From IMG/VR virus record IMGVR_UViG_3300027896_000022, positions 17,954-81,953 of that record: DNA of 64,000 nt. One strand, written 5' to 3'. The notes beneath the pieces are model-generated. The model made no database searches, was not told the DNA's origin, and saw only the letters and a program-made list of their open reading frames with translations. A program made the position numbers and the translations under genes. Of the stretch, positions 3,001 to 58,170 are shown one piece after another. Origin of the DNA: a virus. Lineage: Duplodnaviria > Heunggongvirae > Uroviricota > Caudoviricetes. How positions within the stretch are numbered: the first letter of the stretch is position 1; each line of letters opens with the position of its first letter.

Positions 3001-4110
3001 CAGGATGCTTATCAAAGCAAATCTTTTGTCGCCAATGCCAGAAATGTTGATGAAATTTTCTCAAAAACAGTCAAGGGCAAAACAGTCGGTCTTGATCCGG
3101 CAATAGCCTTGATAACTAAAATAAAAAAAGCAGGTGCTTCAATAACCCCTTTCCAGGAAAAACTTTTAGCTTTAGCTGATGAAAAAGGCAAAGGTTTTAA
3201 GACCGTTCAAGCTGATATTGTTAAAGCCGATAAAGCTGGAGCAACTGCAGTAAGAGAAAAATTCAAGCAAGAACCAAGTAAAGCCTTAAATACCATTAGA
3301 GGAATAGCTATAAAAGCTAGGCAAGATTATAATTCAACTAAAAATTATGCAAAAAAGAAAGAAGCTGCACAAAGAGTTTCGGATTATTTTGATGCTAATA
3401 GAAAAAAATTTAATAAAACTGATTTAACACAAATTGCACGATGGAATTCAATTTCTGATGAGGCAAATATCGCTCATGGACCTCAGTATAGAACCCCAGT
3501 ATATATCCGCAGATCCAATACTTTAACAAATGCTGACCCGGAAGTTGCCAAAACATATTATGAAGCCTCAGAAAAGGCTATTCCCCCTGCTGAAAAATAT
3601 AGCAATCTAGCTAAACAGACTGCAAAAACAACAACAAAACCGGTAGAAGAGCCTTTAACGACCATGTCTGGAATTCAATTAAAAAAAGAAACCACCCCTG
3701 CAGGTGATTATTGGTTAGAACAGAATGTGGCAAAGTCTGGCGGTAAATGGACGCCAGTAGTAAAAGCTGGCCATACGGTAGAGCATTTAATGCTAAAAGG
3801 CGGTGGCGGTTATGCTGGAAAGGTAAGAATCGATGGTGTTGAATATACTTATCCTGAAGCTGAAGCCAAATTTCTCAATCCTGTTGCCAAATATAATAAT
3901 TTAGCTAAAACCGTGAAGACGACTATGCCAAAATATACAATTGGTGCTACCTTTGATTATGAGGGAAAAAAATGGGAAATAAAGGATTTCCCAGGGCTTA
4001 AACTTGTCACTGTTGCTCAAGTTGATAATCCAAATATAACTCAAGATTTAAGTCGTTCCGCACTTTTATCTGGCGATATTGGAACTAATTTAAAGAATCC
4101 TACAGTTTAA
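13..4110 (+). CDS. Giant protein of at least 1365 aa. The frame is open to the window start, so the N-terminus may lie upstream. It carries a beta-prime-like catalytic-loop motif, so it is a candidate phage-encoded or virion two-barrel RNA polymerase.
   Basis: Long uninterrupted ORF. The segment VLRNPS...HTIV...GGDQDGDD at nt ~2290-2460 resembles bacterial beta-prime LLNRAPTLH...HPLV...NADFDGDQ, including a DxDGD loop. Confidence in the ORF is high; confidence in the product is low. Confidence 0.4.
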   Translation: MRDNNALGIKVVVEIDPQTLSSKARGTKESFFKVHVTDDSWDPANIKRTTELMVKGTNLPNNEINVAANAIHDVLKDKPEVIANYIAGTPKENIETANPPGAVLEEPIATTPEESAASFEAFMHDNIPFKNSTETALLNKEMEPVHMAATIKETTPIIREAITTKRAMPAEEPRISEETISSAIPVKTKTPVTNWKNFSVQPGGGEEINAGAMAHTDDPVVLQSFTRKNLYDIAKGASKKGAEVGAGWKTFLNNINSKLKTPITDKNELNDLRWLYKRGANSSSRLELTSEKNLIPGAPENKGKGDADIEKFNKDNNLPADAVQIIGINKQRTYGPDPKYTDSRNKFDEDVKTLSKVGKDKFLPVGQLAKGSTQVIFAKFSPEYVKIFDKNPEKYTPTGAKIVTPEDKFLQVLKVGALNLPKDMNTGDFIKRSSLIFTRGQQYNGIDNNSKFTLNILKSPTVGEEGNVNSDNFENPKDPKVQDAINGLTEMSRIDGKIILGEDLFDKIRNDTNYDPAKYKTGLKITLNGQGNLIGNENDLYQMIHKGSAIKADPAIRAYIKSVYGFDLPKGEAASFDTNAKVGPKEGKFETPLSSIFTQAVSPSEEGRVTPDFERKLQSSDAGATNDILNINQKRLQVFKQLNDDIAATTNKKELEDVLNKYSDKYNLDKASLFYGDLGESFNLGAAKINLSHNLERVLKNIFNESVINDVLPGSGRATLSFSLPLKLDGPNNPARVVNNEEIVLGKEFMKAHNIKEGDDVMVLRNPSIDMNNILVLKARDGSTLGHTSLGTEHTIVSPFNERIILGGDQDGDDVLITKVGEGGIPESYVNAVKTRGSKAIPFSEVTPRPSTPTTIANITDVIHNYLVGDNQTSHISMVNRMMNSLQDNGLTVKVYPSSGKNSRYELVANGKVVESGITSASKAGFEATPQLDYNVRQLRTQALQEAVDSKKSNDIVARSNNNDPLWMLKQVFKSSDGKELDDYQAVALRKALQNYQDAYQSKSFVANARNVDEIFSKTVKGKTVGLDPAIALITKIKKAGASITPFQEKLLALADEKGKGFKTVQADIVKADKAGATAVREKFKQEPSKALNTIRGIAIKARQDYNSTKNYAKKKEAAQRVSDYFDANRKKFNKTDLTQIARWNSISDEANIAHGPQYRTPVYIRRSNTLTNADPEVAKTYYEASEKAIPPAEKYSNLAKQTAKTTTKPVEEPLTTMSGIQLKKETTPAGDYWLEQNVAKSGGKWTPVVKAGHTVEHLMLKGGGGYAGKVRIDGVEYTYPEAEAKFLNPVAKYNNLAKTVKTTMPKYTIGATFDYEGKKWEIKDFPGLKLVTVAQVDNPNITQDLSRSALLSGDIGTNLKNPTV

Positions 4111-4391
4111 ATACTGCGTAATCCTAGTAAACCAATTTCATTTTCATCTATTCTTAATTTTTCACAAGATGGGCATCTTAATTCTGCCCATCTTTTTTTT
4201 TCTTCATCAGGATTAAAATCAAGCTTGGTATGTTGACCGCAATATTGGCAGGCAAAAACTGGAAAATCTTTTACTTCATTTATTACTTTCTTTTCAGCTT
4301 TATAACATTTTTGGCAGCAAAAAAGTTGCTTTTTTTTAGTAGGAATAAAAGATTTTTTGCAAAAACCGCATTTTAATTTCTTTTTTTTCAT
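4107..4391 (-). CDS. Small Cys-rich zinc-ribbon protein
   Basis: 94-aa ORF with four CxxC pairs, directly downstream of the block on the same strand. Confidence 0.5.
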   Translation of the reverse strand: MKKKKLKCGFCKKSFIPTKKKQLFCCQKCYKAEKKVINEVKDFPVFACQYCGQHTKLDFNPDEEKKRWAELRCPSCEKLRIDENEIGLLGLRSI

Positions 4392-4397
4392 AATTTG

Positions 4398-4772
4398 TTA
4401 CTGATTACCCATATGACTGAACTCATTAAGAATTCCTTTTTGAAGACACTTTAAAGCATTGATAAATTGTTCTATGTTGGCTAAGTGGCATTTGGCTTGT
4501 TCAGCTGTATAGGCTTCATCTGAAGCCTCTGCAATGCTCTTGGCCTTAGCACTGCTAAGTTGCTTGCCAGTTGCCTCATCTATTTGGGCTTCAGCATCTC
4601 TAACTATTAAGGCATAGGCTCTTTCAGCTAAAACACGCTTTAAATTATGTTCAGCATAATATTGAGCCATCCTAACGACAATTTCACCAACTTCCTCACC
4701 GGTTACCTGACCAGTGCTATAATCTTTAATAAATTTTGTATATTCTTCAATGTATGGTAATGTTTCTGACAT
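4398..4772 (-). CDS. Hypothetical protein
   Basis: 124-aa ORF, tightly packed with neighbours. Confidence 0.5.
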   Translation of the reverse strand: MSETLPYIEEYTKFIKDYSTGQVTGEEVGEIVVRMAQYYAEHNLKRVLAERAYALIVRDAEAQIDEATGKQLSSAKAKSIAEASDEAYTAEQAKCHLANIEQFINALKCLQKGILNEFSHMGNQ

Positions 4773-4782
4773 AGTTTTATTA

Positions 4783-5271
4783 TTAATTATTTAAATTCAT
4801 TGTTCCTCGATGCAATCTGGCCATTGTTTCCGGTGATCTTTCATAGTTTCCAACCCGAGGATCGCCTTTTTTAAACCAATATTTTTTTCCTTTTTTTAAA
4901 TTGGTTTTTATCTTTTCCCAAGTAGCTTGATTTAATTCATGTTTAATATCTCTATACCATTCTGGAATATATCCACGCTTGACATCTTTGCCAATATATT
5001 TCTTATATTCCCTGCCTGTCATTTTATGCCGCAAATAAGCATGAGAGCAAATTTGAACATACCAACCGCCACAAATAACACATTGGATTTTCCCAGGCTT
5101 ATATTCAGCTCTTTTTTTTCTGAACCATTCTAAATGTTGTTCGGCAAATTTTTGATTATAGAATTTAGTCCTGCATTTTTGACTGCAATAAGTTCTAAAC
5201 CTTTTTTTGACTATTGGAAGGCCGCAAGTTTTGCATTTATTCCTTAATTCTATTTTCCATTTTTTTTTCAT
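4783..5271 (-). CDS. Zinc-finger protein (C-x2-C...H-x3-H, Ros/MucR-like motif), basic
   Basis: Carries CVICGGWYVQICSHAYLRH and an N-terminal CxxC...CxxC. The same motif is found in ORF 15996-16832. Confidence 0.5.
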   Translation of the reverse strand: MKKKWKIELRNKCKTCGLPIVKKRFRTYCSQKCRTKFYNQKFAEQHLEWFRKKRAEYKPGKIQCVICGGWYVQICSHAYLRHKMTGREYKKYIGKDVKRGYIPEWYRDIKHELNQATWEKIKTNLKKGKKYWFKKGDPRVGNYERSPETMARLHRGTMNLNN

Positions 5272-5750
5272 ATTGAATAAATTAACTTTCCTTGACCATG
5301 CAGAATTTCATGCTGATATATTTGAGCGTCACGGCCAGACAATTTTTTGATTTCTCTGGCACCGATAGTGCCTTCTGGCGTCAAAATACTGCATTCAACT
5401 TCTATCTTATGAAATCTTTGAACTTTAATTGGCGGTCTGTCGGGAAATGACAAGCATCCTTCAATTTTTATTATTGGTACCTTAGTATGTCTAATGATTA
5501 TTGGATTAATAATTATTCCTTTTTCTTGAGTAACAAAAAAATTTAAAGGATTCTTATTGTCAATCTGGCTATGATGGACGGCAAAAGAACCTGGAATTGG
5601 CCCTACCTGCATATAACAGAGGTTATAAAGGATATGTGATTCATTTATCAGGCGTGGAAGATCTTTTTCTGTAACTTCTTTGCTCTTTTTTTTATGAGGC
5701 GGCACAAGATAACTTTTAAAGTCTGTTAAATCTTGTTTTGCTTCTTCCAT
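5268..5750 (-). CDS. def: Peptide deformylase
   Basis: Contains the PDF motif 2 EGCLSFPD and motif 3 QHEILHGQGKL (HExxH). Motif 1 is divergent. Confidence 0.75.
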   Translation of the reverse strand: MEEAKQDLTDFKSYLVPPHKKKSKEVTEKDLPRLINESHILYNLCYMQVGPIPGSFAVHHSQIDNKNPLNFFVTQEKGIIINPIIIRHTKVPIIKIEGCLSFPDRPPIKVQRFHKIEVECSILTPEGTIGAREIKKLSGRDAQIYQHEILHGQGKLIYSI

Positions 5751-14300: not shown

Positions 14301-14556
14301 GTAAGATATTTTCTGATGGGGGACGGCAAGTCGTCAGCTTTGCTCGTGGCCAGAAAAAACTTCAAAGAAAATTCCAACCACGGCGGACCGCTTGGCCGAA
14401 GGGGGGATTCATTTCCCCACTTGCCGCACCCTCATCAAAAAAACAAAAACTAATTGGCTTAATAATCTATCGTGCGTTCAATTAACTTAGCCGGAAATAG
14501 CCCGAAAGGAACCTAATACCTTTGCACACGTTCCGGAACCAATTGGAGAGTTTTAG

Positions 14557-14628
14557 ACCAGGTAACAGAAATCGGACCTGCTTCATGAGATTGGAAATCT
14601 CAGGTAATAACCATTATACGATACCTGG
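14557..14628 (-). tRNA. tRNA-Gly (anticodon TCC). The cloverleaf was folded by hand. CCA is not encoded.
   Basis: Reverse complement reads ccaggta tc gtat aatggtta ttac c tgaga tttccaa tctca tgaa gcagg tccgatt tctgt tacctgg t. It has a 7-bp perfect acceptor stem, U8, A14, GG in the D-loop, U33 and A37. The T-loop is atypical. Confidence 0.45.
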
Positions 14629-46186: not shown

Positions 46187-47614
46187 ATGAATGAAAAATT
46201 ATTAGAAAAATTGAAAGATCCAAAATTCTTTTTGGAAAATTTAGTTAAAATAAAAGGTAAAACGCCAGGGTTAATTCCGTTTATTCTAAATGAAGCCCAG
46301 AAAGATCTTTTTAATACATTAAGGAAACATAATCGCGTGATTATCTGCAAAGCCCGGCAGATTGGATTTAGCACAGCCGTTGTTGGTTATCTTTATTGGA
46401 AGACTCTTATGACTCCGGGAACAAATACTGCAATTATTGGTTATAATGCTCCATTGACGGCTGAACTTTTGGATAAAGTTAAGACTTTTTATAGAAGTAC
46501 TCCAGCAGATCTTCGTCCGGCCATCCATTATAATTCTAAAAGTGAAATTTCTTTTCCAAATATTGACAGTAAGATAATCGTTTTGCCATCTACTGAGAAT
46601 GTGGGCAGAGGATATACTCTTCATAACGTTTTGGCCACTGAATTATCAGCCTGGGAAAAAGCGGAAGATAAAATGATGTCTCTTGAAGCTTCTGTTCCGT
46701 TAGATGGGTTGATTGTGGTGGAAAGCACTCCTCGCGGGCAAGGAAATCTTTATCATAAGATGTTTATTGAAGAAAATGGTTATGCCAAGAAGGAATACGG
46801 TTGGTGGTGGGGATATACAGAGGAAGAGATTGAGACGATTAAAAAAAGAATGAACAATCCGATGCGTTTTGCTCAAGAATACGGATTGGAATTTCTTGCT
46901 TCTGGCAGATCTGTCTTTGATCAGAATGTTATCAGAAAACAAAGGAAGAATATTCTTAAGGTTGGTGACAAACATGGTGATTGGACGGTTATAGAAGAAA
47001 GAGGTTTGAGAATTTATTCTAACGTTGATCCTTCGGCTATGTATATTTTTGGGGTAGATACTTCAGAGGGCGTGGATGGAGGAGATTATTCTACTGCTAC
47101 TGTTTTCAACAGAACAAGCGGCGAAGAAGCGGCTTTTTATAAAGGATTGATTGAACCGGATAAGTTGGCGAAACTTTTGAATGAATGGGGGAGAAAATTT
47201 AATAATGCTTTAATGGTAGTTGAGGTTAACAATCATGGATTGACGACGTTAACCGTATTGAAACAATTGATGTATCCAACGCTTTATTTCAGGCAATCTC
47301 AATATGAGACGATTGGAGCTAAATATTCTGATAGATTGGGTTGGAAGACGACAAAGTTGACCAGACCTTTATTAATTGATGATTTATCCCAGGCGGTTAG
47401 AGAAGGTGTTCTGACTATTCATAGTAAGGAAACGTTGGATGAGATGTCGACTTTTATATATGACAAAAATAATAACATGGTTGCTTCTGGGACAACTCAT
47501 GATGACTGTATTTTTTCAGCAGCAATTTCTTTTCAGGGGTTTAAAGTTATGTGGGATAAGCCGTTAGATCAAATAAATTATGCAAATCATCTTCCGATGA
47601 GTACTAATTATTAA
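46187..47614 (+). CDS. Terminase large subunit
   Basis: Walker A-like KARQIGFSTAV, plus a C-terminal nuclease-like region with conserved acidic residues (DTSEG, HDDCIFS). Confidence 0.7.
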   Translation: MNEKLLEKLKDPKFFLENLVKIKGKTPGLIPFILNEAQKDLFNTLRKHNRVIICKARQIGFSTAVVGYLYWKTLMTPGTNTAIIGYNAPLTAELLDKVKTFYRSTPADLRPAIHYNSKSEISFPNIDSKIIVLPSTENVGRGYTLHNVLATELSAWEKAEDKMMSLEASVPLDGLIVVESTPRGQGNLYHKMFIEENGYAKKEYGWWWGYTEEEIETIKKRMNNPMRFAQEYGLEFLASGRSVFDQNVIRKQRKNILKVGDKHGDWTVIEERGLRIYSNVDPSAMYIFGVDTSEGVDGGDYSTATVFNRTSGEEAAFYKGLIEPDKLAKLLNEWGRKFNNALMVVEVNNHGLTTLTVLKQLMYPTLYFRQSQYETIGAKYSDRLGWKTTKLTRPLLIDDLSQAVREGVLTIHSKETLDEMSTFIYDKNNNMVASGTTHDDCIFSAAISFQGFKVMWDKPLDQINYANHLPMSTNY

Positions 47615-49652: not shown

Positions 49653-51854
49653 ATGGCTATAGAAACCTACAATCCAAGCGATTTTGGTGACAAGGAAGTA
49701 GCTTTGCGTAATACTTTTATTTTACAGATGTATGATGCAAGAAACTATTTTTTAAATGTTACTAAACCTCGGTTGGATAGGGCATATAAATTATACATTG
49801 CTTATACTGGGGATAGACAAAGAGAAATAAAAAGGTGGCAGTCTAACGTTTTTGTTCCATATATAATGGCGGCAGTAGAAACCTTGATGCCTCGTATCTT
49901 GGATGCCAGACCGGATTTTACGGTTAAAGGAAGATCGGATGAAGATCAGTTGAAGACAGAAAAACAGCAACAACTGGCTGACTATCTTTGGGAAATTGCG
50001 AAGATGGATGCCACAACTGAAACGCTTGTTCGTTCTTGTCTTATTTACGGGACAGGTTATTTGCAGGTGAGTTGGAAAAAAGATGTTAGAAAATATAAAT
50101 TTTTAGGCACTAAAGATTTATTGGATAAAAAATATACTTATAAAGAAAAAGAAAAAGTTTTTTATGACGCTCCTTATTGCGAATGGATAGACAATTATCA
50201 ATTATGGTTTGATTGGCATAATACCACCAGAGATACAAAGCAGTATTGGTTTAAACGCCTGGTGTTGTCTGAACCTGAAATAAGGCGTCGTTATCCTAAT
50301 GCTGATAAAAAGAGATTGCAGATGGGGCTTAACGGTGTGGGAGGTGATTTAAACGACTATGCTTCTGTCAGAAATTTGGTAAAATCAAATCATCAGTTTA
50401 TTTTAAAAGGTTTTGCGCCAGTTACCAGTTATAGAGGAATTGGTGATGATAAATATCAGGTTTATGGCGATCCGAAATTAAGAATGTATGAAGTCTTTGA
50501 GTGGTGGAGGCCGTTTGAAGATGCTTATACGGTTATGGTTGGAAATAATTATGTTCCAATCTTTAAAGGCGGCGCTATTCCAATACCTTATGATTTTAAA
50601 GAGGCTCCTTTTATTGAAGTTCCTTATTTGAAAATGCCCTATGAATTTGAGGGCTATGGTTTGCCGATGATTTTGGAAAATCCTCAGATTATGTTAAATC
50701 TTATTAAAAACCAGAGATTGGATGCGGCTACTCTTTCTATTCATAAGATGTGGATTGTTAATCCGTTGGCGAATATAAATAAAGAAGAATTGGTCACTCG
50801 TCCATTTGGTATAATTTATTCTATTGATCCAAATGGAGTTAGAGAAGTTCAATTTAGTGATATAAAACAGAGTGCTTATAGGGAAGAAGATTTATTAAAG
50901 CAAGATATGAGATATTCTTCTGGAGTTGATGATGCCTCAATGGCTGTTGGCGGTGGAGCAAGCAGTGCGACTGAAGTCAGGCATCTTAGAGAATCAACTT
51001 TGGAGCGTGTCAGGCTGTTTGTTAATCATCTTGGAGAAGCATATTCTGACGTGCTAAGATATTGGATGGATATGCAACGGCAATTTTTCACTAAGCCGAT
51101 GCAGATTAGAGTTCTTGGCCAAGACGGTGAAACATCTTTTCCGTTGATAGAAAAAGATGATTTAAAAGGTAATTTTGACTATATTGCGACAGTTTTGCCT
51201 TCTATTGCCGGACAGCAGGATGTTCAGAAAAAACAGGATATGGATTTGTTCCAGTTGCTTATTAATTTGCCATTCATTGATCCGAAAAAGCTTACTTCTA
51301 AAGTTCTTCAAGATTTCGGTTGGAATCTTGATGGTATAACAGCTCCTGAACAAGGAGCTCAACCTCAAGTTGGTCCAGATGGTCAGCCGATTCCGGGAGG
51401 TCCTACTGATCAATTAGCGGGGGCAGCACCAGGTGGAGCTACTCCAGATATGGGTGCCGCGATGCCGCCTCCAGGCGGGTTGCCGCCTGGTGGAGCACCC
51501 CCAGGCGGTGGAGTTCCGCCAGGGTTGAGTCCAAATGGAATTCCTCCGGGTGTTATGATGAAAGCTTTAAAACTTTTAGGAGGAAAACCTCAGTTGCCTC
51601 CTGCCGCTACATCTCAATTTACACAAGCTAATGTTCCGATTAATATTCAGGCTGGCAATCCTCCGACAGTTCCTGGAATTCCGCCTTCATCGGGTGGAGG
51701 TCCGGGACCGAGTAGATATAGTCCAGGAGGAAAGACGACTAATCCTCGGGGAATGAACAGAGGAGGAAAAGTAAACACTAATGCTATGAATAAAAATGGC
51801 AATTCTAATCCTGAATCATCTTTATTGCGTAGTGTTAATAATATTCAACGGTAA
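49653..51854 (+). CDS. Putative portal protein, with a C-terminal Gly/Pro-rich low-complexity tail
   Basis: 733-aa ORF that follows the terminase in the canonical gene order. No explicit motif supports the call. Confidence 0.4.
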   Translation: MAIETYNPSDFGDKEVALRNTFILQMYDARNYFLNVTKPRLDRAYKLYIAYTGDRQREIKRWQSNVFVPYIMAAVETLMPRILDARPDFTVKGRSDEDQLKTEKQQQLADYLWEIAKMDATTETLVRSCLIYGTGYLQVSWKKDVRKYKFLGTKDLLDKKYTYKEKEKVFYDAPYCEWIDNYQLWFDWHNTTRDTKQYWFKRLVLSEPEIRRRYPNADKKRLQMGLNGVGGDLNDYASVRNLVKSNHQFILKGFAPVTSYRGIGDDKYQVYGDPKLRMYEVFEWWRPFEDAYTVMVGNNYVPIFKGGAIPIPYDFKEAPFIEVPYLKMPYEFEGYGLPMILENPQIMLNLIKNQRLDAATLSIHKMWIVNPLANINKEELVTRPFGIIYSIDPNGVREVQFSDIKQSAYREEDLLKQDMRYSSGVDDASMAVGGGASSATEVRHLRESTLERVRLFVNHLGEAYSDVLRYWMDMQRQFFTKPMQIRVLGQDGETSFPLIEKDDLKGNFDYIATVLPSIAGQQDVQKKQDMDLFQLLINLPFIDPKKLTSKVLQDFGWNLDGITAPEQGAQPQVGPDGQPIPGGPTDQLAGAAPGGATPDMGAAMPPPGGLPPGGAPPGGGVPPGLSPNGIPPGVMMKALKLLGGKPQLPPAATSQFTQANVPINIQAGNPPTVPGIPPSSGGGPGPSRYSPGGKTTNPRGMNRGGKVNTNAMNKNGNSNPESSLLRSVNNIQR

Positions 51855-52001
51855 TTATATGGATGAAGGACAAATGCCGCCAGGCAACGTTAGAACAACC
51901 GCAGATTCTGAGAAGGAAGGTCGACTTATCGTTTCTGCGGGTAATACGAAGACAAAAAAGCGTAAAATTTTAAAAAAATTAATTAAATCTAAGTAAAAAA
52001 T

Positions 52002-52211
52002 ATGTCTATTTCTAATATTGGAGAATCAATGAGAAGAATCATTCCCGACAAACCGGCCGATCAATTCGGCAAAGACATTACTGGAGCAAACAATCCGGTT
52101 CGGAACAGAACTATTGCCTTGGAAGGGGAAGATAATGCTGTGGATAAGAAAAAAAGTTCTGTTTTGAAGAATGTTTTGTCTAAAATTATCAAAAAAAAGG
52201 CTAAAAAATAA
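52002..52211 (+). CDS. Small basic protein
   Basis: 69-aa ORF. Confidence 0.35.
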   Translation: MSISNIGESMRRIIPDKPADQFGKDITGANNPVRNRTIALEGEDNAVDKKKSSVLKNVLSKIIKKKAKK

Positions 52212-52226
52212 GAGAAAATTATAAAT

Positions 52227-52535
52227 ATGAAAAATGATAATTATTTTAGCAAGGAAAAACAAGATTTAATCAATTCGATGAGTAATGATGAGATGAATGG
52301 TCTTCTGTTGGACCTTGAATCAACTGATTATTGGATTGCAATCTTAAAATATAGTCAAGGAAGGCAAATAGTTGTTCAAAATGCCTTAATTACTGGTGAC
52401 CCTATAAAAAATGCTACAGAAATGTGCAGAAATCAAGGTATTTTGATGGGGCAATCTGACCTAGCTCAAATGGTTATTATGTTGAAAGAAAGGGCAGACA
52501 AAAATGGGCCTGAAAAGGTTTCTAAAAAAGAATAA
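52227..52535 (+). CDS. Hypothetical protein
   Basis: 102-aa ORF. Confidence 0.4.
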   Translation: MKNDNYFSKEKQDLINSMSNDEMNGLLLDLESTDYWIAILKYSQGRQIVVQNALITGDPIKNATEMCRNQGILMGQSDLAQMVIMLKERADKNGPEKVSKKE

Positions 52536-52568
52536 TTATTTGACTTTTTTGTTTTTTCTTGAGTTTTG

Positions 52569-52577
52569 TGCTATAAT
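52569..52577 (+). promoter_or_regulatory. Extended -10 promoter element TGcTATAAT
   Basis: The ttttgtgctataat sequence is shared with 33569-33580. It lies 32 nt upstream of the 52609 ATG. Confidence 0.4.
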
Positions 52578-52608
52578 GGTAACTAATTAAATTAAAATCT
52601 CTAAATTT

Positions 52609-52788
52609 ATGGCTAATTGGATAGCTGGTGCTATAAAAAAGCCAGGAGCTCTGCATAAGTCTTTAGGAGTTCCGGCAGGAAAGAAAATTCCATCTTCTAA
52701 GATTAATAAAGCTGCTCATTCTACTAACCCGACTCTCAGGAGAAGGGCAATCTTGGCTAAAACATTAGCAGGATTTCATAAAAAATAA
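52609..52788 (+). CDS. Small conserved phage protein of 59 aa (MANWIAGAIKKPGALHKSLGVPAGKKIP...RRRAILAKTL). I recall it as a DUF3008-like family. It is not in the ORF track.
   Basis: ATG-to-stop ORF with its own promoter. The sequence pattern resembles a widespread ~60-aa phage and bacterial small protein family. The family name comes from memory. Confidence 0.4.
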   Translation: MANWIAGAIKKPGALHKSLGVPAGKKIPSSKINKAAHSTNPTLRRRAILAKTLAGFHKK

Positions 52789-52812
52789 TTAATAAATCTT
52801 AATAAAAAAAAT

Positions 52813-53064
52813 ATGGCAAAAACCATAAAAGATAAGAAAGGAGCTTTTTTAAAAAAAGTTTTAAAAAAAGCTAAAGCTAAAGCTAAGAAAGCTAAACCAG
52901 AAATGGAAGAAAAGGGAGAAAATAAGGCTGAAGAAGCAAAAGAGACTGCAGTAGAAGAAGCTGCTGAGGAAAACGAAGAGGAAAGTGCCGGTGGAGGCAA
53001 AGGTGGTTGCGGCAAGGGCGGTCCGGGTAAAAAATGGATGGCATTGGCTTTTAAGAAAAAATAA
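52813..53064 (+). CDS. Lys/Ala/Glu-rich histone-H1-like small protein
   Basis: Contains KKAKAKAKKAKPE and an acidic middle. It is a possible DNA-condensing or internal head protein. Confidence 0.35.
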   Translation: MAKTIKDKKGAFLKKVLKKAKAKAKKAKPEMEEKGENKAEEAKETAVEEAAEENEEESAGGGKGGCGKGGPGKKWMALAFKKK

Positions 53065-53250
53065 ATGGCTACTTTTTCAAGTGAACCAAAATTTAAAATG
53101 CCAAAAATGCCAAAGGTGTCGGTGGCGATAAAACCTCCGGGAGCTTTTTTCTCTGGAGGCAAATATGCCAAAGGTTTGAAAAAGGTAAGATCGCCTAAAG
53201 CGACAGCTCTTAGAGCTTCTTTGGGAAAGTATGTCAGCAAGAATATGTAA
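53065..53250 (+). CDS. Small basic protein
   Basis: 61-aa ORF. Confidence 0.3.
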   Translation: MATFSSEPKFKMPKMPKVSVAIKPPGAFFSGGKYAKGLKKVRSPKATALRASLGKYVSKNM

Positions 53251-53304
53251 ATATGAATTTATTTAATAATGGAATAATTTGCGCAGTTATTCCATTAACT
53301 AATT

Positions 53305-54084
53305 ATGAATTTTATGAATCCAAACAATCCAAACTCGTCCGCCCCTGATCAGGCGGGTAGCGGGAAGGGTCCTGCAGGTAACGGTGCAGGGCAGCCTGGA
53401 AACGTTAACTATGAAGCATTATACAATGAGCTTGAACAAAAGCTCGGATCCCAAGGAAAAGAGTTAGGTGAATATCGAACTTTTTTTGAAGGGATAGCGC
53501 CAATTTTGGATGTCTTAGACAAGAGTCCTGAAATGGTGCAAGCCATTACTGACGGAAAACTGGATAATTCTTTAGCCAAAGCGGCTTTAGAAGGAAAGTT
53601 GACTGTTAGTGATGTTAAAACAGTCGAGAAAGCCTATGCTGAAGTCCAAAAAGATTTGGGCAAGAAAGGCTACGAAAAAGCCACTGCGGAGGATATTACG
53701 AAACTCGTTGAGGAAAGAGTTGGTGAAGTTAAGAAAGAAATGGATAATTCTTTGCGTGAAAGTGAAGAATTACGAGCGTTTGAAGGCAAGGTCAATGATT
53801 TTGTCGAAAGAACGCCTGATTTCGCCAATTATGCTCGAGACATCGAAGGATGGCTTGACGATCATGAGGATATAACTGATATTGAAGTTGCTTACTATGC
53901 CGTCAAAGGACAGCTTTCTGGAAATGAAGCGTCTCAAAAGGCGGAAGAAGAAAAGGCTGAATACGCCAAAAACATGGCTTTAAATGCCGGTGGAGGCGGA
54001 TATAAGTCTAATTTCATAGATGCTTCTGAAGGGGATGTTATTGATTCCCTTATTGCTCCAAAGTCAAACCCGAATGCTTTTTAG
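53305..54084 (+). CDS. Putative scaffolding protein
   Basis: Acidic coiled-coil protein immediately upstream of the capsid gene. Confidence 0.4.
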   Translation: MNFMNPNNPNSSAPDQAGSGKGPAGNGAGQPGNVNYEALYNELEQKLGSQGKELGEYRTFFEGIAPILDVLDKSPEMVQAITDGKLDNSLAKAALEGKLTVSDVKTVEKAYAEVQKDLGKKGYEKATAEDITKLVEERVGEVKKEMDNSLRESEELRAFEGKVNDFVERTPDFANYARDIEGWLDDHEDITDIEVAYYAVKGQLSGNEASQKAEEEKAEYAKNMALNAGGGGYKSNFIDASEGDVIDSLIAPKSNPNAF

Positions 54085-54124
54085 ACAAAAGAATAGGCAT
54101 AAGATAATAAATTAAAATCTTAAT

Positions 54125-54352
54125 ATGCCTAATATTTATCCGTATTATAATGAGCCAACCCACGACCAGGGTAATGCCATTACATTAACGGCTCCAAATG
54201 CTGGGCGTACTTCCAAGACTGCGTCTGATGAGCAAAGGCTTATCGTCGATGCGGTTGACAAAATATTCTTACTCGAACCGAACAAGCATCCATTAGTTAC
54301 TCTTTTGACAAATGTCGGAAAAGTATACGATAAACAATTACTGTCGTATTAA
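54125..54352 (+). CDS. Major capsid protein exon 1. The ORF as called runs a few codons into the intron.
   Basis: It is followed by a group I intron. The capsid-like exon 2 continues at ~55380. Confidence 0.45.
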   Translation: MPNIYPYYNEPTHDQGNAITLTAPNAGRTSKTASDEQRLIVDAVDKIFLLEPNKHPLVTLLTNVGKVYDKQLLSY

Positions 54353-55385
54353 AATCGGGTTAATTCGGGGAAACTCTTTAGTAGACAATCCCGACCCAAG
54401 ATATTCAGGAATGAATATAAGGGCTAACGACTAATAGCATACCGCCAGAACGGCGATGAAGCTAACAAGAAATCCCGAAGCCAGAGATGGCTAAGATATA
54501 GTCTGAACATCATAGTGATATGATGAAACATAGGATAAAGAGCCTATGGTGATAACATTATAGGGTAAAGCTTGGAAAGGATCTTCCATGTTGAAAGCTT
54601 CAACTGGAAATCCGGAGTTTAAGTGGTTTTTTAGGCTTATATTAGCCGAGAATAAGTAATTCTTTGGACCACTATAAAATTAGCTATTTGCTGGAACACC
54701 CTAAAGGCTTGCGTACCATAGAAGAACATGATACAATGTAATCTATGGTAAAAATCTCAAGCATACAAAAAGTGGGCAATCAGCAGGTAACATCTACAAC
54801 TCTCGCATGGCTTGCGGGAATTTGGGATGGTGAAGGTACTTTTGGTATTTACGGATATCCTAATGGAAAAAAAAGAAGGATGTATTATTGTGGAAGAATG
54901 ACATTATCTAATACTTCTCCTTTAATGATTGATGAAATAATTAGGATTATGGAGTTGTTGGGAGTAAAAGTTGATGTTTGGAAAGAAAAAAAATCACGTA
55001 AAGAGAATCATAAAAAGGCCGTTCATCTTACATTAAATCGAATTGATTCAGTTAAAATGGTATGTGAATTATTAATTCCATACTTAGTTGCAAAAAAAGA
55101 TAGGGCAGAATTATTGTTAAAATTTCTTAATTCTCGTTTAACTTATAAAAGAAAAGTAAAACGAGATCCTGCCACAGGTCATATTCTTGGGGTTATTGAA
55201 CAAGGATATCCTAAAATAGATATTGCAATGTGGAAAAAAATGAGAGACTTGAATCAAGTAGGTATTGTTGTAGATGGTTCCTCAGAGACTACACGCTAAT
55301 CCTCTGGTAACAGAGTGATGATATAGTCCGAACTCACGCGAAATCGTGAGAGTTGTACAGAAATGATACAACCTCTTAATTGAGT
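54340..55385 (+). mobile_element. Group I self-splicing intron carrying a LAGLIDADG homing endonuclease ORF. The boundaries are approximate.
   Basis: Group I core elements are present: an R-like gggctaacgactaatagca at ~54420 and an S-like gatgatatagtccgaac at ~55318. The ~400-nt 5' part is structured and non-coding. It interrupts a capsid-like reading frame. Confidence 0.6.
54745..55299 (+). CDS. LAGLIDADG homing endonuclease, encoded within the intron
   Basis: Contains LAWLAGIWDGEGTFGIY, a single LAGLIDADG motif, and is a 184-aa basic protein. Confidence 0.7.
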   Translation: MVKISSIQKVGNQQVTSTTLAWLAGIWDGEGTFGIYGYPNGKKRRMYYCGRMTLSNTSPLMIDEIIRIMELLGVKVDVWKEKKSRKENHKKAVHLTLNRIDSVKMVCELLIPYLVAKKDRAELLLKFLNSRLTYKRKVKRDPATGHILGVIEQGYPKIDIAMWKKMRDLNQVGIVVDGSSETTR

Positions 55386-56390
55386 AACAAAAGCGAAGAC
55401 TATTACGGTGGAAGATACGCGCGCGTTGCAGCTGATTATGCAATTGGTGCAGCCTCATTTACTGTAACTGGAGCAGGTTCCAGTTCAGGTTACATATTTT
55501 CAATTGGTGATGTCGTTAAAAATGCCCGCACTGGTGAAAATATGTTGGTTACAGCTGTTGCTGCCAATACGATTACTATTACTAAAGCATTTGGTACTAC
55601 AGCTGATTCAGCTGGTTTAGCTGGCGATGGAATTTTCATCGTTGGTAATGCCAATGAAGAAAACTCGGGTGCTCGCAGTGTGAACTCCACACAGAGCACA
55701 CCGCAGACCAACTACACTCAGATATTTAAAACAACCATTGCTTTGTCTAACACTGAAAAGGAAGCCAATCTCTATGGAGGTAAAGACTTGCCTTATCAGA
55801 GAGCTAAGAAAGGCACTGAACATGCTTTGGATATTGAACGTGCATTTTGGTTTGGTCAGAAGAATTATGCCGCTGGCTTCAATGGCCCACAAGGCCATCC
55901 GAGACGCCAGACTGGTGGTGTTTTGGAATTCATTGAAGGGGGAAATTCCTATGTTCAGAATCAGGGTGGTGCTTTGACTGCTCCGGATTTGAACACTTTC
56001 TTGCGTGAAGGTTTCACTTATGGCAACTCTGAAAAGATGTTGTTCTGCGGTGGTTACGTCTTGCAAGCTATTAACGAAATTGCTCGTGGACAAATTTTGA
56101 TGAAACCGGTTGAGTCTACCTATGGGATGAAAATTTCTCAATGGGTGACCGCTTTCGGGACTGTCAATATTGTCCATAATCCGCTTTTTGTTGAAGAGTA
56201 CGCCGGTTATGCGTTCTTGCTGGATATGGAAAGCTTCAGATATCGCTTTATGAATAATCGCGATACTCAGTTGCAGACCAATATTCAAGCTCCGGATGCT
56301 GACGGCGAGGTGGATCAATACATCACTGAGTGCGGTCTTGAGAGAAAACAGTCTCCGAGACATGCTTTACTTAAGGGTGTCTTATCCTGA
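55380..56390 (+). CDS. Major capsid protein exon 2. The true exon start is a few nt downstream of 55380.
   Basis: 336-aa ORF following the intron. It is Gly/Thr/Asn-rich like capsid proteins, and its position follows the scaffold. Confidence 0.5.
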   Translation: MSNKSEDYYGGRYARVAADYAIGAASFTVTGAGSSSGYIFSIGDVVKNARTGENMLVTAVAANTITITKAFGTTADSAGLAGDGIFIVGNANEENSGARSVNSTQSTPQTNYTQIFKTTIALSNTEKEANLYGGKDLPYQRAKKGTEHALDIERAFWFGQKNYAAGFNGPQGHPRRQTGGVLEFIEGGNSYVQNQGGALTAPDLNTFLREGFTYGNSEKMLFCGGYVLQAINEIARGQILMKPVESTYGMKISQWVTAFGTVNIVHNPLFVEEYAGYAFLLDMESFRYRFMNNRDTQLQTNIQAPDADGEVDQYITECGLERKQSPRHALLKGVLS

Positions 56391-56545
56391 AGTAATTTAG
56401 TTTCTTAATTTTCATCGAGTTAAGATATTCACTACCCGGCGGCCTGAAGAAAAATGGCTGCCGGGTAGGGGCCTGAGTCCCCTACCCCGACATGGCTACG
56501 GGTCATTAGCCGGTTTAATAAATCGATGTTTAATCAAATAAGAAT

Positions 56546-57280
56546 ATGCCAAGTTTAGAACAAATACGCACTCGCAAATATTTGACTAGAGGTGTTGTTG
56601 GCCAGGTATGCGCTGACAATTCTGTGATATTTACGATGCGTTATATTGGCGGTGGTACGGTTACTTCGGTAATTACAACTGCTGCTACTGACATAACAAT
56701 GGTAACGGTTGTTGGCACTACCACTTATACAGATGCTTATACTTGGGCTGCTTATAATACCGTTGAGAAATTAGTGGCTGCAATTAATGCTGATGGCAGA
56801 TTTGAAGCCAAAGTTATGGATTGTTTGTCCACGACAGCTACGGCTGCAAACTTTGTTATCGGTGCAACTTTAGCAGTAGATGCTAACGGTAATTATGATA
56901 TTTTGGGTGATACTAGCAATATTCTCTTTATGGCCTATCGTCTGACCTATGATCGGACTTTTAATACAAATGCAAAAGTTCGAGGAAGCCATAGAGTTGC
57001 CATTCAGGAAATAGTCACTACGTTGACTCTAGGTGGAGCTCATGTGAACACATTCAAGATTTATGAATGTACTCCTGGCGGTAATTCTGAGTCTTATCCT
57101 TCATCTGAAACTTTGATTTATCAAAAGTCTCCGGTGACTGGTACGACTTCAACTTTGAATTGGGCTAGCGGAAATAGTGAGATTACCAGCAATGAAGGCA
57201 ATGATTTATTGTTAGTCATTTCTGATAGCGTATCTTTTGGAGCTTCTGATGTTGTTACGGTTACTGGTAAAGCAGAATAG
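56546..57280 (+). CDS. Structural protein, paralog A
   Basis: It starts MPSLEQIRTRKYLTRGVVGQV and contains IGGGTVTSVITTAATDIT. Confidence 0.5.
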   Translation: MPSLEQIRTRKYLTRGVVGQVCADNSVIFTMRYIGGGTVTSVITTAATDITMVTVVGTTTYTDAYTWAAYNTVEKLVAAINADGRFEAKVMDCLSTTATAANFVIGATLAVDANGNYDILGDTSNILFMAYRLTYDRTFNTNAKVRGSHRVAIQEIVTTLTLGGAHVNTFKIYECTPGGNSESYPSSETLIYQKSPVTGTTSTLNWASGNSEITSNEGNDLLLVISDSVSFGASDVVTVTGKAE

Positions 57281-57429
57281 TTATAAATTCCTAATTTTCA
57301 TTGAGTTAGGATATTCGTACGGAGCGGTCCGAAGAAATAATGATCGCTTTATAGAAACAAGATTTCTATCCCGACATGGCCACGGGTTATTGGCCGGTCT
57401 AATTAATCAATGTTTAATAAAATAAGAAT

Positions 57430-58170
57430 ATGCCAAGTTTAAACGAATCATACATCAGACATGAATTGACCAGAGGTGTTATTGGTCAAGTGCTTGATGA
57501 TGCGCCTGTATTATTTAAATTAAAGTATATTGGTGGTGGCACAGTTACTTCGGTAATTGTAACTGCTGCTACTGATATTACGTTAGTTTCATCCTATGCT
57601 GGCACTACCAGCACTGATGCTTTTCATTGGGCGGCTCCAGCAACTTATACTACCGTTCGTCTGATGGTTGATGCTATTAATAATACGGGAAGATGGGAAG
57701 CTAAAATCATGGATGCCTTATCTACTACTACTTTAGGTGCTAACTTAATGATAGGCGGGACCTTAGTAGTAAATGCTGATGGAGAATATGAAGTAGTGTC
57801 TGATACTAGTAATGCCAAATTTATGGCTTACAGATTGTCTTATGACAGAACTTTCAAGAATACCAGATCGTTAAGAAATGGTCATAGAGTAAGCATTAAA
57901 GAAATCGTCACTAATCTTACTTTGGGTGGTGGCGCTGACACAAATTCATTTAAGATTTATGAGTGTACTCCAGGTGGCAATACTGCACCTTATGGTGGAG
58001 CTGAAATTTTAGTTCTGCAAAGAACGCCGACCACTGGTAGTGCTGAAACTGTTACTTGGGCTTCGGGCAAAGGTAAAATTACTGCCGAAGAAGGTAATGA
58101 TTTATTAACTATCATTACTGATTCCGGTAGTATTACCGGCTCTATAACAGTTAATGGTGAATTAGAATAG
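57430..58170 (+). CDS. Structural protein, paralog B
   Basis: It starts MPSLNESYIRHELTRGVIGQV and is colinear with 56546-57280. Confidence 0.5.
   Translation: MPSLNESYIRHELTRGVIGQVLDDAPVLFKLKYIGGGTVTSVIVTAATDITLVSSYAGTTSTDAFHWAAPATYTTVRLMVDAINNTGRWEAKIMDALSTTTLGANLMIGGTLVVNADGEYEVVSDTSNAKFMAYRLSYDRTFKNTRSLRNGHRVSIKEIVTNLTLGGGADTNSFKIYECTPGGNTAPYGGAEILVLQRTPTTGSAETVTWASGKGKITAEEGNDLLTIITDSGSITGSITVNGELE

What the first reader, a model, noticed from the sequence alone, without database searches (positions are those of the whole stretch)
54340..55385. Group I intron with a LAGLIDADG homing endonuclease splitting the major capsid protein gene
The capsid-like reading frame stops at 54352. About 400 nt of structured non-coding RNA follow, including an R-like element ctaacgactaa, then a LAGLIDADG ORF (LAWLAGIWDGEGTFGIY), then an S-like element gatatagtcc. 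The capsid-like frame resumes at ~55380. This is typical of a group I intron (IA-like), here in an essential structural gene.
Basis: partly seen in the sequence, partly recalled or inferred. Interest (0 to 1): 0.6.

Follow-up and report, generated by a model that had tools for sequence, protein, structure and literature searches.

The report
Two introns split a capsid gene
The phage's major capsid gene is interrupted by two separate self-splicing group I introns, not one, with a 65-base coding piece between them; only the second intron carries a homing endonuclease gene. This is a well-known kind of selfish element in phage genes.

Summary

- **Gene structure.** The SU10-type capsid gene has three exons: 54125-54331, 54564-54628 (65 nt) and 55394-56390. 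Joining them gives a 422-aa protein that aligns without gaps to uninterrupted 422-423-aa homologues. Relatives with empty sites carry the same junction DNA.
- **Intron 1 (54332-54563, 232 nt).** It has no ORF. It scores 61.6 bits against Rfam Intron_gpI (threshold 50).
- **Intron 2 (54629-55393, 765 nt).** The predicted fold matches I-CreI.
- **Intron 2 score.** Rfam gives only 29.6 bits because the ORF fills the P6 loop. The core is instead supported by covariation in 12 family members: 93.9% of cells paired, against 33-46% in slid controls.
- **Splice sites.** Both introns have a U·G pair at the 5' splice site, a terminal G and a P10 pairing.

Splicing and endonuclease activity are inferred, not shown. 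Capsid-gene introns, several introns in one gene, and intron-rich phages are already published. I file this as a new member of a known kind, of modest interest. Relatives of this capsid gene carry introns at nine or more sites.

The parts
54125..54331 (+). Capsid gene exon 1 (69 codons, ends ...GTA TAC GAT = VYD)
   Evidence: The ORF starts at 54125. The translation is colinear with residues 1-69 of uninterrupted homologues P0002-P0005. The last base, U54331, pairs with G54343 in P1.
54332..54563 (+). Intron 1: ORF-less group I intron, 232 nt. Helices: P1 54325-31/54343-49; P10 54564-68/54338-42; P3 54355-59/54474-78; P4 54365-70/54389-94; P6 54395-97/54421-23; P6a 54401-07/54412-18; P7 54429-33/54499-503; P7.1-like hairpin 54443-46/54452-55; P8 54479-83/54488-92; P9 54508-14/54519-25; P9.1 54529-34/54543-48. 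It ends in G54563.
   Evidence: Rfam RF00028 gives 61.6 bits (gathering score 50), E = 3e-13. All helices were checked base by base. The minimum-free-energy fold has z = -4.44 and recovers P1, P3, P4, P6, P8 and P9. A homologous intron sits at the identical site in L021, with compensatory changes in P3, P4, P8 and P9.
54564..54628 (+). Capsid gene exon 2: 65-nt micro-exon encoding GKAWKGSSMLKASTGNPEFKW and the first two bases of F
   Evidence: The peptide is identical to P0002 and P0005 over this stretch and conserved in all uninterrupted homologues. Empty-site DNA in L001, L002, L010, L023, L021 and L027 matches both joined junctions.
54629..55393 (+). Intron 2: group I intron carrying the endonuclease gene, 765 nt. 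Helices: P1 54623-28/54667-72 (U54628·G54667) with a 38-nt L1; P10 55394-99/54661-66; no P2; P3 54679-84/55295-300; P4 54689-94/54780-85; P5 54699-701/54774-76; P6 54786-87/55280-81; P6a 54791-800/55267-76, which closes the ORF loop; P7 55285 and 55287-91/55324-29; P8 55302-06/55311-15; P9 55333-38/55345-50; P9.1 55352-57/55367-72. It ends in G55393.
   Evidence: Rfam gives 29.6 bits, E = 1.7e-5, with the 3' half (R-P3'-P8-S-P9) at high posterior probability; this is below the gathering score. Helices were checked base by base. Covariation in 12 ORF-deleted family members: 93.9% of cells paired against 33-46% when slid, 20 of 33 pairs with changes on both sides, and 0 of 500 shuffles as good. 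The ORF-deleted construct folds with z = -5.04. Homologous introns sit at the same junction in L017/L026 and L027.
54745..55299 (+). Intron-encoded single-motif LAGLIDADG homing endonuclease (184 aa from ATG 54745, or 175 aa from GUG 54772). The stop codon UAA 55297-99 lies inside P3'. The N-terminal GNQQ is encoded by J5/4-P4'-P6. The C-terminal SSETTR is encoded by P6'-P7-P3'.
   Evidence: Pfam LAGLIDADG_3 scores 24.0 bits against a cut-off of 22.5. There are 62 homologues, nearly all 160-216 aa (one of 246 aa), and most carry LAGLIDADG_3. D28, G29, E30 and G31 are invariant in 41 sequences. The AlphaFold2 model has mean pLDDT 87.8. The top Foldseek matches are I-CreI, I-CvuI and I-MsoI, probability 1.00.
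55394..56390 (+). Capsid gene exon 3 (starts C GAA GAC TAT = (F)EDY, runs to stop TGA 56388-56390)
   Evidence: Pfam SU10_MCP gives 177 bits. The sequence is colinear with homologues from E92 onwards. C55394-A55399 pair with the guide sequence as P10.

Best explanation
The SU10-type major capsid gene of this ~90-100-kb-class uncultivated phage (its endonuclease is found on an 88-kb contig, relatives on 86-105-kb contigs) is transcribed as one pre-mRNA containing two independent group I introns 65 nt apart.

**How each intron would splice (inferred from the family mechanism).** Each intron folds into its own P3-P9 catalytic core. An internal guide sequence pairs with the end of the upstream exon (P1, with a U·G wobble at the cut) and with the start of the downstream exon (P10). 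An external guanosine attacks the 5' splice site. The freed 3'-OH of the exon then attacks after the terminal G of the intron.

**What is shown in silico.** Removing both introns joins 54331 to 54564 and 54628 to 55394. This gives a 1269-nt reading frame for a 422-aa capsid protein.

**Intron 1.** It is a compact 232-nt ribozyme without an ORF. It is the ORF-less version of an intron that, in the closest relative L021, carries an antisense LAGLIDADG_2 gene in the P8 loop.

**Intron 2.** It has a 461-nt P6 loop. Its ORF encodes an I-CreI-like single-motif LAGLIDADG endonuclease. The first and last ~12 codons of the ORF double as ribozyme core (P5'-P4'-P6 and P6'-P7-P3').

**Mobility (inferred).** The endonuclease would act as a homodimer and cut intron-less capsid alleles near ...AAGTGGTT|CGAAGAC... 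in co-infecting relatives. Repair of the break would copy intron 2 into the cut allele. Because site 1 is only 65 bp away, intron 1 could be carried along by co-conversion.
For: **The gene has three exons.**
- Uninterrupted homologues read ...VGKVYD|GKAWKGSSMLKASTGNPEFKWF|EDYYGGRYAR.
- The joined window protein (422 aa) aligns without gaps across both junctions, at 87-91% identity to the closest full-length homologues.
- Empty-site DNA in six relatives matches both joined junctions.

**Both inserts are group I introns.**
- Rfam gives 61.6 bits for intron 1 and 29.6 bits, E = 1.7e-5, for intron 2.
- U·G at the 5' splice site, terminal G, and P1 and P10 pairings are verified for both.
- All core helices are verified base by base.
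- Intron 2 family covariation: 93.9% paired, 20 pairs with changes on both sides, slid controls 33-46%.
- Intron 1 and its L021 homologue differ by compensatory changes.
- Fold z-scores are -4.44 and -5.04.

**Intron presence varies as expected for mobile elements.**
- L021 has site 1 only. L027 has site 2 only. L001 and 14 other loci have neither.

**The endonuclease.**
-, as listed under parts.
Against: - There are no RNA data, so splicing is inferred.
- Intron 2 taken as a contiguous sequence fails the Rfam gathering score (29.6 against 50). I could not score an ORF-deleted construct with Rfam.
- Intron 2 lacks P2 and has an unusually long L1 (38 nt, against 15 nt in L017).
- P5 of intron 1 is only 2 bp plus a mismatch.
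- An alternative P1 (U54629-U54632 with A54649-A54652) would place the 5' splice site of intron 2 after U54631 and add one Phe (WFFED).
- The endonuclease start codon is ambiguous (ATG 54745 or GUG 54772), and I saw no obvious ribosome-binding site by eye.
- The covariation structure was drawn from the window sequence, which favours it in the slid-partner control.
Confidence: 0.92

Rival explanations
1. A single group I intron of about 1.05 kb (about 54340-55385) with an internal LAGLIDADG ORF. The R element at 54424 would pair with the S element at 55320.
For: The P7 strands of the two introns are identical (GACUA/UAGUC), so R of intron 1 could in principle pair with S of intron 2. Capsid ORFs close at 54352 and re-open at 55380.
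Against: - It would delete 22 residues that are present in every uninterrupted homologue and are encoded in frame at 54564-54628.
- Joining exon 1 directly to exon 3 is out of frame (207 nt followed by C GAA...).
- A complete ribozyme core, including its own S element and P9, lies within 54332-54563.
- Relatives carry either intron alone: L021 has site 1 only and L027 has site 2 only.
Confidence: 0.02
2. The inserts are decayed or non-splicing, so the capsid gene is a pseudogene or is expressed as separate fragments.
For: There is no expression evidence. Intron 2 is below the Rfam gathering score.
Against: - All three exons are open and 87-94% identical to the closest relatives, with no frameshifts.
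- Every core helix, both guide sequences, both U·G pairs and both terminal Gs are intact.
- No other ORF in the region scanned (52000-58000) looks like a second capsid gene, and the gene sits in the usual order after terminase, portal and a scaffold-like ORF. The other window ORFs were not scanned against Pfam.
- The endonuclease ORF is full length, with its invariant catalytic motif.
Confidence: 0.03
3. The same two introns, but the 5' splice site of intron 2 lies three bases downstream (after U54631). The capsid protein would be 423 aa and read KWFFED.
For: An alternative short P1 exists (U54629-A54652, U54630-A54651, U54631·G54650, U54632-A54649) next to a GGCU/AGCC stem, seen by reading the sequence. 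The frame is preserved.
Against: - W90 and F91 are nearly invariant and E92 and D93 invariant, and no homologue has an extra residue here.
- The 54623-28/54667-72 P1 is directly continuous with a 6-bp P10.
- The same P1/P10 geometry and the same TGGTT| junction recur in L017 and L027.
Confidence: 0.04
4. The insert is an intein or another protein-level element.
For: LAGLIDADG domains also occur in inteins. One homologue is labelled 'intein/homing endonuclease' by its source (P0141).
Against: The capsid frame runs into a stop codon at 54350-54352 and is closed until 55380. No Hint or intein-splicing domain was found. The flanks are group I ribozyme cores.
Confidence: 0.005

Closest known systems
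Staphylococcus phage Twort orf142 (three group I introns in one gene; Landthaler & Shub, PNAS 1999, 96:7005; known to me from the reference list seen, the paper itself is not held)
   Same: Several self-splicing group I introns lie close together in one phage gene. The title of that paper reports exon skipping between neighbouring group I introns, a risk that also applies here.
   Different: The host gene, phage lineage and intron sequences differ. Here there are two introns in the window (relatives have up to four or more), a 65-nt micro-exon, and a LAGLIDADG gene in one intron. Skipping the micro-exon here would shift the reading frame.
Mycobacteriophage LittleE capsid-gene intron, and the lactococcal phage Tuc2009 capsid intron cited in the same paper (PMC3706429)
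   Same: An intron interrupts a major capsid gene and carries a homing endonuclease. For LittleE, splicing was proven by protein sequencing and RT-PCR. The antisense endonuclease gene of LittleE parallels the antisense LAGLIDADG_2 ORFs I saw in relatives L021 and L017.
   Different: LittleE has one intron with an HNH enzyme, and its authors call it only 'most likely' group I. The window has two introns, a sense-strand LAGLIDADG gene and a clear Rfam match.
Phage T4 td, nrdB and nrdD (sunY) group I introns with I-TevI/II/III (reviewed in PMC2988022)
   Same: These are phage group I introns that carry an endonuclease gene in a peripheral loop and spread by endonuclease-driven homing with co-conversion of flanking exon sequence (my own knowledge of the T4 system).
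   Different: The T4 enzymes are GIY-YIG or HNH, not LAGLIDADG. The T4 host genes are for nucleotide metabolism, not structural. In the window the ORF ends are embedded in the ribozyme core.
I-CreI, I-CvuI and I-MsoI (homodimeric single-motif LAGLIDADG endonucleases of algal chloroplast 23S rRNA group I introns)
   Same: The predicted fold matches: Foldseek probability 1.00, TM-score about 0.7 relative to the target, one LAGLIDADG motif with a conserved acidic residue, about 150-180 aa.
   Different: Sequence identity is only 14-21%. The host is a phage protein-coding gene. The target site is unknown. The motif ends in GEG rather than GDG.
Intron-rich 'Jug' jumbo gut phages (PMC12880540)
   Same: Many essential phage genes are split by short group I introns and homing endonuclease genes, with splicing supported by metatranscriptome reads.
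   Different: Those genomes are 360-402 kb with about 18 introns each. In this 64-kb window only the capsid gene has introns detectable with Rfam.

Membership tests
Group I intron (Rfam RF00028) | Covariance-model score at or above the gathering score of 50 bits | tested here: met
   Intron 1: 61.6 bits, E = 3.3e-13, model positions 1-253. The model misplaced P1, which I corrected by hand.
Group I intron (Rfam RF00028): intron 2 | Covariance-model score at or above the gathering score of 50 bits | tested here: inconclusive
   29.6 bits, E = 1.7e-5. Only the 3' half aligns correctly, because the 5' half lies about 470 nt upstream across the ORF. An ORF-deleted construct could not be submitted to Rfam. 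Relatives of the same intron family score 26.6-43.6 bits.
Group I intron | 5' splice site after a U that forms a U·G wobble in P1 with an internal guide sequence, and an intron that ends in G | tested here: met
   U54331·G54343 with terminal G54563; U54628·G54667 with terminal G55393. The positions were fixed independently by protein colinearity and by empty-site DNA.
Group I intron | P10 pairing between the guide sequence and the start of the 3' exon | tested here: met
   Intron 1 has 5 bp (54564-68/54338-42). Intron 2 has 6 bp (55394-99/54661-66). By eye, P10 is conserved in L017 and L027 and is shorter (about 3 bp) in L016.
Group I intron | Conserved core: P3-P7 pseudoknot, P4-P6 stack, and P7 with a bulged base and a G-C pair | tested here: met
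   All helices form in both introns. Intron 2 family: P3 has 5 of 6 pairs, P7 3 of 6 and P9 5 of 6 with changes on both sides; 93.9% of cells are paired. Intron 1 and L021 show compensatory changes in P3, P4, P8 and P9.
Group I intron | Guanosine-dependent self-splicing that restores the host reading frame | not testable with these tools
   In silico, removal restores a 422-aa frame. Catalysis needs an experiment or RNA reads.
Group I intron subgroup IA | Extra P7.1/P7.2 helices between P7 and P3' | tested here: inconclusive
   Intron 1 has a 34-nt insert here with one hairpin, 54443-46/54452-55, which fits IA. Intron 2 has only CAC between P7 and P3' and no P2, so it is not IA. No subgroup-specific models were available.
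LAGLIDADG homing endonuclease | Pfam LAGLIDADG domain at or above the curated cut-off | tested here: met
   PF14528 LAGLIDADG_3: 24.0 bits against 22.5, E = 4.8e-5, residues 20-102. Most of the 62 homologues carry a precomputed PF14528 hit.
LAGLIDADG homing endonuclease | LAGLIDADG motif helix ending in a conserved acidic metal-binding residue | tested here: met
   The motif is LAWLAGIWDGEG. A21, W22, G25, D28, G29, E30 and G31 are invariant in 41 sequences.
LAGLIDADG homing endonuclease (I-CreI-like homodimeric class) | Single alpha-beta-beta-alpha-beta-beta-alpha domain of about 150-200 aa | tested here: met
   AlphaFold2 pLDDT 87.8, with element order H-E-E-H-E-E-H. The best PDB matches are I-CreI, I-CvuI and I-MsoI. 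Dimerisation itself is inferred.
LAGLIDADG homing endonuclease | Site-specific cleavage of the intron-less allele | not testable with these tools
   Candidate target sequences are available from L021, L001 and L023. The central TTCGAA is palindromic, but the arms are not.
SU10-type HK97-fold major capsid protein (PF17236) | Pfam SU10_MCP at or above the cut-off | tested here: met
   Exon 3 alone gives 177.3 bits against 24.1. PHROG 1328 'major head protein', E = 4e-45.
Intein | An open in-frame insertion with splicing (Hint) blocks | tested here: not met
   There is a stop at 54350-54352 in the capsid frame and no Hint domain.

The most novel reading that the evidence does not exclude
The intron 2 lineage may be a group I intron and I-CreI-like endonuclease family that favours SU10-type capsid genes and has moved to several different positions in them. 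I saw it at V65 in L016, at F91 in the window, L017 and L027, and in capsid genes only 33% identical (L040, L041). The target genes of L028 and L032-L036 were not identified, so specialisation is not established.

The ends of its ORF are fixed by the ribozyme core. The ORF-less intron 1 in the window would persist and spread only by riding in the co-conversion tract of the endonuclease located 65 bp away. Together with at least nine insertion sites, up to four introns in one gene, and micro-exons down to about 27-45 nt in relatives, this capsid gene family could serve as a natural system for studying intron site-hopping and cooperative homing.
Probability: 0.3. Interest if true: 0.45.

Novelty: new member of a known kind. 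Interest (0 to 1): 0.3.

Why it matters
**Annotation.** Automatic gene callers split this capsid gene into fragments and miss the 65-nt micro-exon. Database entries for relatives start at internal Met codons or inside intron sequence: P0001, P0009 and P0081 for this reason, and P0008 even though its gene is uninterrupted. Correct splicing is needed to obtain the real 422-aa capsid protein for phylogeny or structure work.

**Biology.** This is one more case of selfish group I introns living in the most highly expressed late gene of a phage, where splicing must be efficient. The local variation is useful material for studying homing, co-conversion and how endonuclease ORFs extend into ribozyme cores: either intron alone, both, or neither in close relatives, and the same intron family at different sites. 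None of this changes current understanding of group I introns.

Tried and rejected
- **Rfam over the whole window.** Neither the gathering threshold nor E <= 1e-3 found intron 2 or any further intron. Intron 2 appeared only when the 881-nt region was searched alone.
- **Rfam's P1 for intron 1.** The model placed P1 at 54301-54322. I rejected this because it does not put a U·G pair at the junction required by the protein alignment. The hand-derived P1/P10 does.
- **DNA search against GenBank phages.** BLASTN of 54100-55400 found only ~70-nt matches of the S-P9 region, to the Lactobacillus phage JCL1032 tape-measure gene region and to uncultured phage cr128_1. There is no close cultured relative, and the best cultured capsid homologues are about 30% identical.
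- **First guesses at intron 2 helix coordinates.** They were a few bases off and were corrected by string search.
- **P8 of the intron 2 family.** It is out of register in the MAFFT alignment (72.7% paired). Read by eye, each sequence has its own P8 hairpin.
- **PHROGs label.** PHROGs calls the endonuclease family 'HNH endonuclease' (phrog_5046). I rejected this in favour of LAGLIDADG on the Pfam, motif and fold evidence.
- **P0008 (L023/L024).** I expected an intron because the called protein starts at MLKA. The capsid gene there is in fact uninterrupted.
- **Twort paper.** PMC22036 is not held.
Full report
**1. What is in the sequence**

The ORF map shows three pieces:
- a 75-aa ORF at 54125-54352;
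- a 184-aa ORF at 54745-55299 containing LAWLAGIWDGEGTFGIY;
- a 336-aa ORF at 55380-56390.

Pfam assigns the last ORF to SU10_MCP (177 bits) and the middle one to LAGLIDADG_3 (24.0 bits, cut-off 22.5). PHROGs calls the last one a major head protein. Rfam at gathering threshold finds one Intron_gpI match, 54297-54525, at 61.6 bits and E = 3.3e-13.

**2. The gene is in three pieces, not two**

A protein search with the C-terminal ORF found 1710 relatives. Most of the closest are 418-425 aa. They read ...LLTNVGKVYDGKAWKGSSMLKASTGNPEFKWFEDYYGGRYAR....

In the window:
- The N-terminal ORF matches up to ...KVYD and then diverges (KQLLSY, stop).
- The C-terminal ORF matches only from EDYYGG.
- The 22 missing residues are encoded in frame at 54564-54628 (ggt aaa gct tgg ... 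aag tgg tt).

Joining 54125-54331, 54564-54628 and 55394-56390 gives 1269 nt, or 422 aa. This protein aligns without a gap across both junctions to 15 full-length homologues, at 76-91% identity; the closest full-length ones are 87-91%. At DNA level, the joined junctions match the uninterrupted ("empty") sites of relatives L001, L002, L010, L023, L021 and L027.

The intervening sequences are therefore 54332-54563 (232 nt) and 54629-55393 (765 nt).

**3. Intron 1 (54332-54563)**

- The Rfam match covers its core, including its own S element (GAUAUAGUCU, 54495-54504) and P9.
- The splice sites are canonical. P1 is 7 bp, A54325-U54331 with G54343-U54349, and the last exon base U54331 pairs with G54343. 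The intron ends in G54563. P10 is 5 bp, G54564-A54568 with U54338-U54342.
- P3, P4, P6/P6a, P7, P8, P9 and P9.1 all form.
- The thermodynamic fold recovers P1, P3, P4, P6, P8 and P9, with z = -4.44.
- A 34-nt insert between P7 and P3' contains a hairpin where subgroup IA introns carry P7.1/P7.2.
- The closest relative, L021 (capsid protein 94% identical), has a homologous intron at exactly the same site. Its first 36 nt are identical and its 3' end nearly so. P3, P4, P8 and P9 differ by compensatory changes. In L021 the P8 loop holds about 840 nt carrying a LAGLIDADG_2 ORF on the opposite strand. The window's copy is the ORF-less form.

**4. Intron 2 (54629-55393)**

Searched alone, the region gives 29.6 bits (E = 1.7e-5). 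R, P3', P8, S and P9 align at high posterior probability, but the 5' half is misplaced inside the ORF. By hand and by script:
- P1 is G54623-U54628 with G54667-C54672, including U54628·G54667.
- P10 is 6 bp, C55394-A55399 with U54661-G54666.
- The terminal base is G55393.
- The core is P3 54679-84/55295-300, P4 54689-94/54780-85, P5 54699-701/54774-76, P6 54786-87/55280-81, and a 10-bp P6a 54791-800/55267-76 that closes the ORF-containing loop.
- Then follow P7 (with bulged A55286), P8, P9 and P9.1.

The ORF-deleted construct folds with z = -5.04.

Homologous introns with the same endonuclease family were found in three places:
- at the same TGGTT| junction in L017/L026 and L027;
- at a different capsid site (V65) in L016/L029;
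- in eight further loci.

I aligned 12 ORF-deleted members and counted pairs for the hand-drawn structure:
- 93.9% of cells form standard pairs, against 33-46% when the 3' partners are slid.
- 20 of 33 pairs have changes on both sides.
- The covariation score is 0.529, against 0.06-0.15 for slid partners.
- None of 500 shuffles reached the observed percentage paired or covariation score.

P3 alone shows UUAGC/GCUAA, UUGGC/GCCAA, UUCGC/GCGAA and GGCAC/GUGCU variants. I regard intron 2 as a genuine group I ribozyme even though the raw Rfam score is below threshold.

**5. The endonuclease**

- The ORF has 62 homologues, nearly all 160-216 aa (one of 246 aa), and most carry LAGLIDADG_3. D28, G29, E30 and G31 are invariant.
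- The AlphaFold2 model (pLDDT 87.8) has one alpha-beta-beta-alpha-beta-beta-alpha domain. Its best PDB matches are the homodimeric enzymes I-CreI, I-CvuI and I-MsoI.
- The first ~16 and last ~7 residues are modelled with low confidence.
- Those tails are encoded by ribozyme core. GNQQ is AAUCAGCAGG, which is J5/4, P4' and P6. All 10 nucleotides are invariant in 12 members, third codon positions included, although the window's enzyme is only about 30-35% identical to most of the other members'. SSETTR-stop is P6'-P7-P3', with the UAA stop inside P3'.
- Several family members start at an AUG placed where the window has GUG 54772. Several homologues are called at 175 aa. The real start may therefore be 54772.

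**6. Mechanism**

Shown:
- the architecture;
- the splice-site geometry;
- conservation of the ribozyme cores;
- an intact endonuclease fold;
- presence or absence of each intron independently in close relatives.

Inferred from established group I and LAGLIDADG biology:
- guanosine-initiated self-splicing of both introns;
- homodimeric cleavage of intron-less alleles around TGGTT|CGAAGA;
- homing by double-strand-break repair;
- co-conversion carrying the ORF-less intron 1, which lies 65 bp away.

Skipping the micro-exon would shift the frame, so the two introns must each use their own guide sequence. Their P7 strands are identical, but their P1, P3 and P10 differ.

**7. Comparison with what is known, and novelty**

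- Capsid-gene introns are published: LittleE, with an antisense HNH gene and proven splicing, and Tuc2009 (PMC3706429).
- Three group I introns in one Twort gene, with exon skipping, are known (reference seen).
- Intron-dense phages are described, with 18.5 introns per genome and splicing confirmed by RNA reads (PMC12880540).

The window is therefore a new member of a known kind. Interest is modest, 0.3.

**8. Context**

The window carries terminase (46187-47614), portal (49653-51854) and a scaffold-like ORF (53305-54084). Then comes the split capsid gene, two paralogous 244-246-aa ORFs, and a collagen-like tail fibre. The endonuclease sequence is on record from a contig of 88 kb. There is no close cultured relative.

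Noticed in passing
L019/L020 (IMG/VR contigs of 86-89 kb), locus 640-5520: The homologous capsid gene there has four interruptions, at aa 51/52, 199/200, 222/223 and 237/238, with micro-exons of 69 and 45 nt. Three of the four gaps have sub-threshold Rfam Intron_gpI hits of 37-40 bits. With L016, L017, L022, L025 and L030, this capsid gene family has at least nine distinct insertion sites.
   Followed up: partly
L030:1-2400: The N-terminal ~90 codons of this capsid homologue are broken up by several introns, with four Rfam hits of 87.9, 84.8, 37.6 and 31.7 bits. One micro-exon of about 27 nt encodes LTNVGKVWD and ends at the same D|G site as window intron 1.
   Followed up: partly
L021:216-1013 (-), L017:2843-3688 (-), L023:1543-2325 (-), L024:2850-3632 (-): LAGLIDADG_2 ORFs lie on the strand opposite to the capsid gene. 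In L021 the ORF is inside the P8 loop of the site-1 intron. In L017 it is inside the aa 45/46 intron. In L023 and L024 it is a free-standing gene just upstream of an uninterrupted capsid gene. Antisense endonuclease genes in phage introns are reported (LittleE) but seem frequent in this clade.
   Followed up: partly
L022:3787-4012, L025:2752-2966: A different ORF-less intron of about 205 nt (P7 GACUG/CAGUC) sits one base upstream of window site 2 (TGGT|...|TCGAGGAC). Two unrelated intron lineages therefore target almost the same position. These loci also have an intron at aa 52/53.
   Followed up: partly
window 54778-54787 and the alignment A3 columns 60-69: The endonuclease N-terminal motif GNQQ is encoded by AAUCAGCAGG (J5/4-P4'-P6). 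All 10 nt are invariant in 12 family members, although the window's enzyme is only about 30-35% identical to most of the others. The protein motif is probably conserved because of the RNA, a case of the ORF extending into the ribozyme core.
   Followed up: partly
window 54429-54433/54499-54503 and 55287-55291/55324-55328: The P7 strands of the two introns are identical (GACUA/UAGUC), and both S elements are followed by GAAC. Cross-pairing between the two introns in the pre-mRNA is conceivable. The S-P9 stretch of intron 1 is also 81-82% identical over ~70 nt to the Lactobacillus phage JCL1032 tape-measure gene region and to uncultured phage cr128_1.
   Followed up: no
L017:9204-9390: Another strong group I intron hit (79.8 bits) lies about 3.3 kb downstream of the capsid gene in this relative, presumably in a different structural gene.
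   Followed up: no
window 56546-57280 and 57430-58170: Two tandem paralogous ORFs (244 and 246 aa, 57% identical) lie directly after the capsid gene. They have similar upstream sequence, and the first had no Pfam or PHROG match (the second was not scanned). They may be decoration or other head or tail proteins.
   Followed up: partly
window 56425-56500: G+C-rich inverted repeats (cactacccggcggcc...ggctgccgggtagg, ggcctgagtcccctaccccg) lie just after the capsid stop codon, in an otherwise A+T-rich region. They look like a terminator or RNA-stabilising hairpins.
   Followed up: no
window 14556-14628 (-): A single tRNA-Gly (anticodon TCC) is encoded among the replication genes.
   Followed up: no
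L018:4917-4966: The capsid homologue shows overlapping tblastn segments in two frames (aa 307-328). This suggests a frameshift or an assembly error rather than an intron.
   Followed up: no
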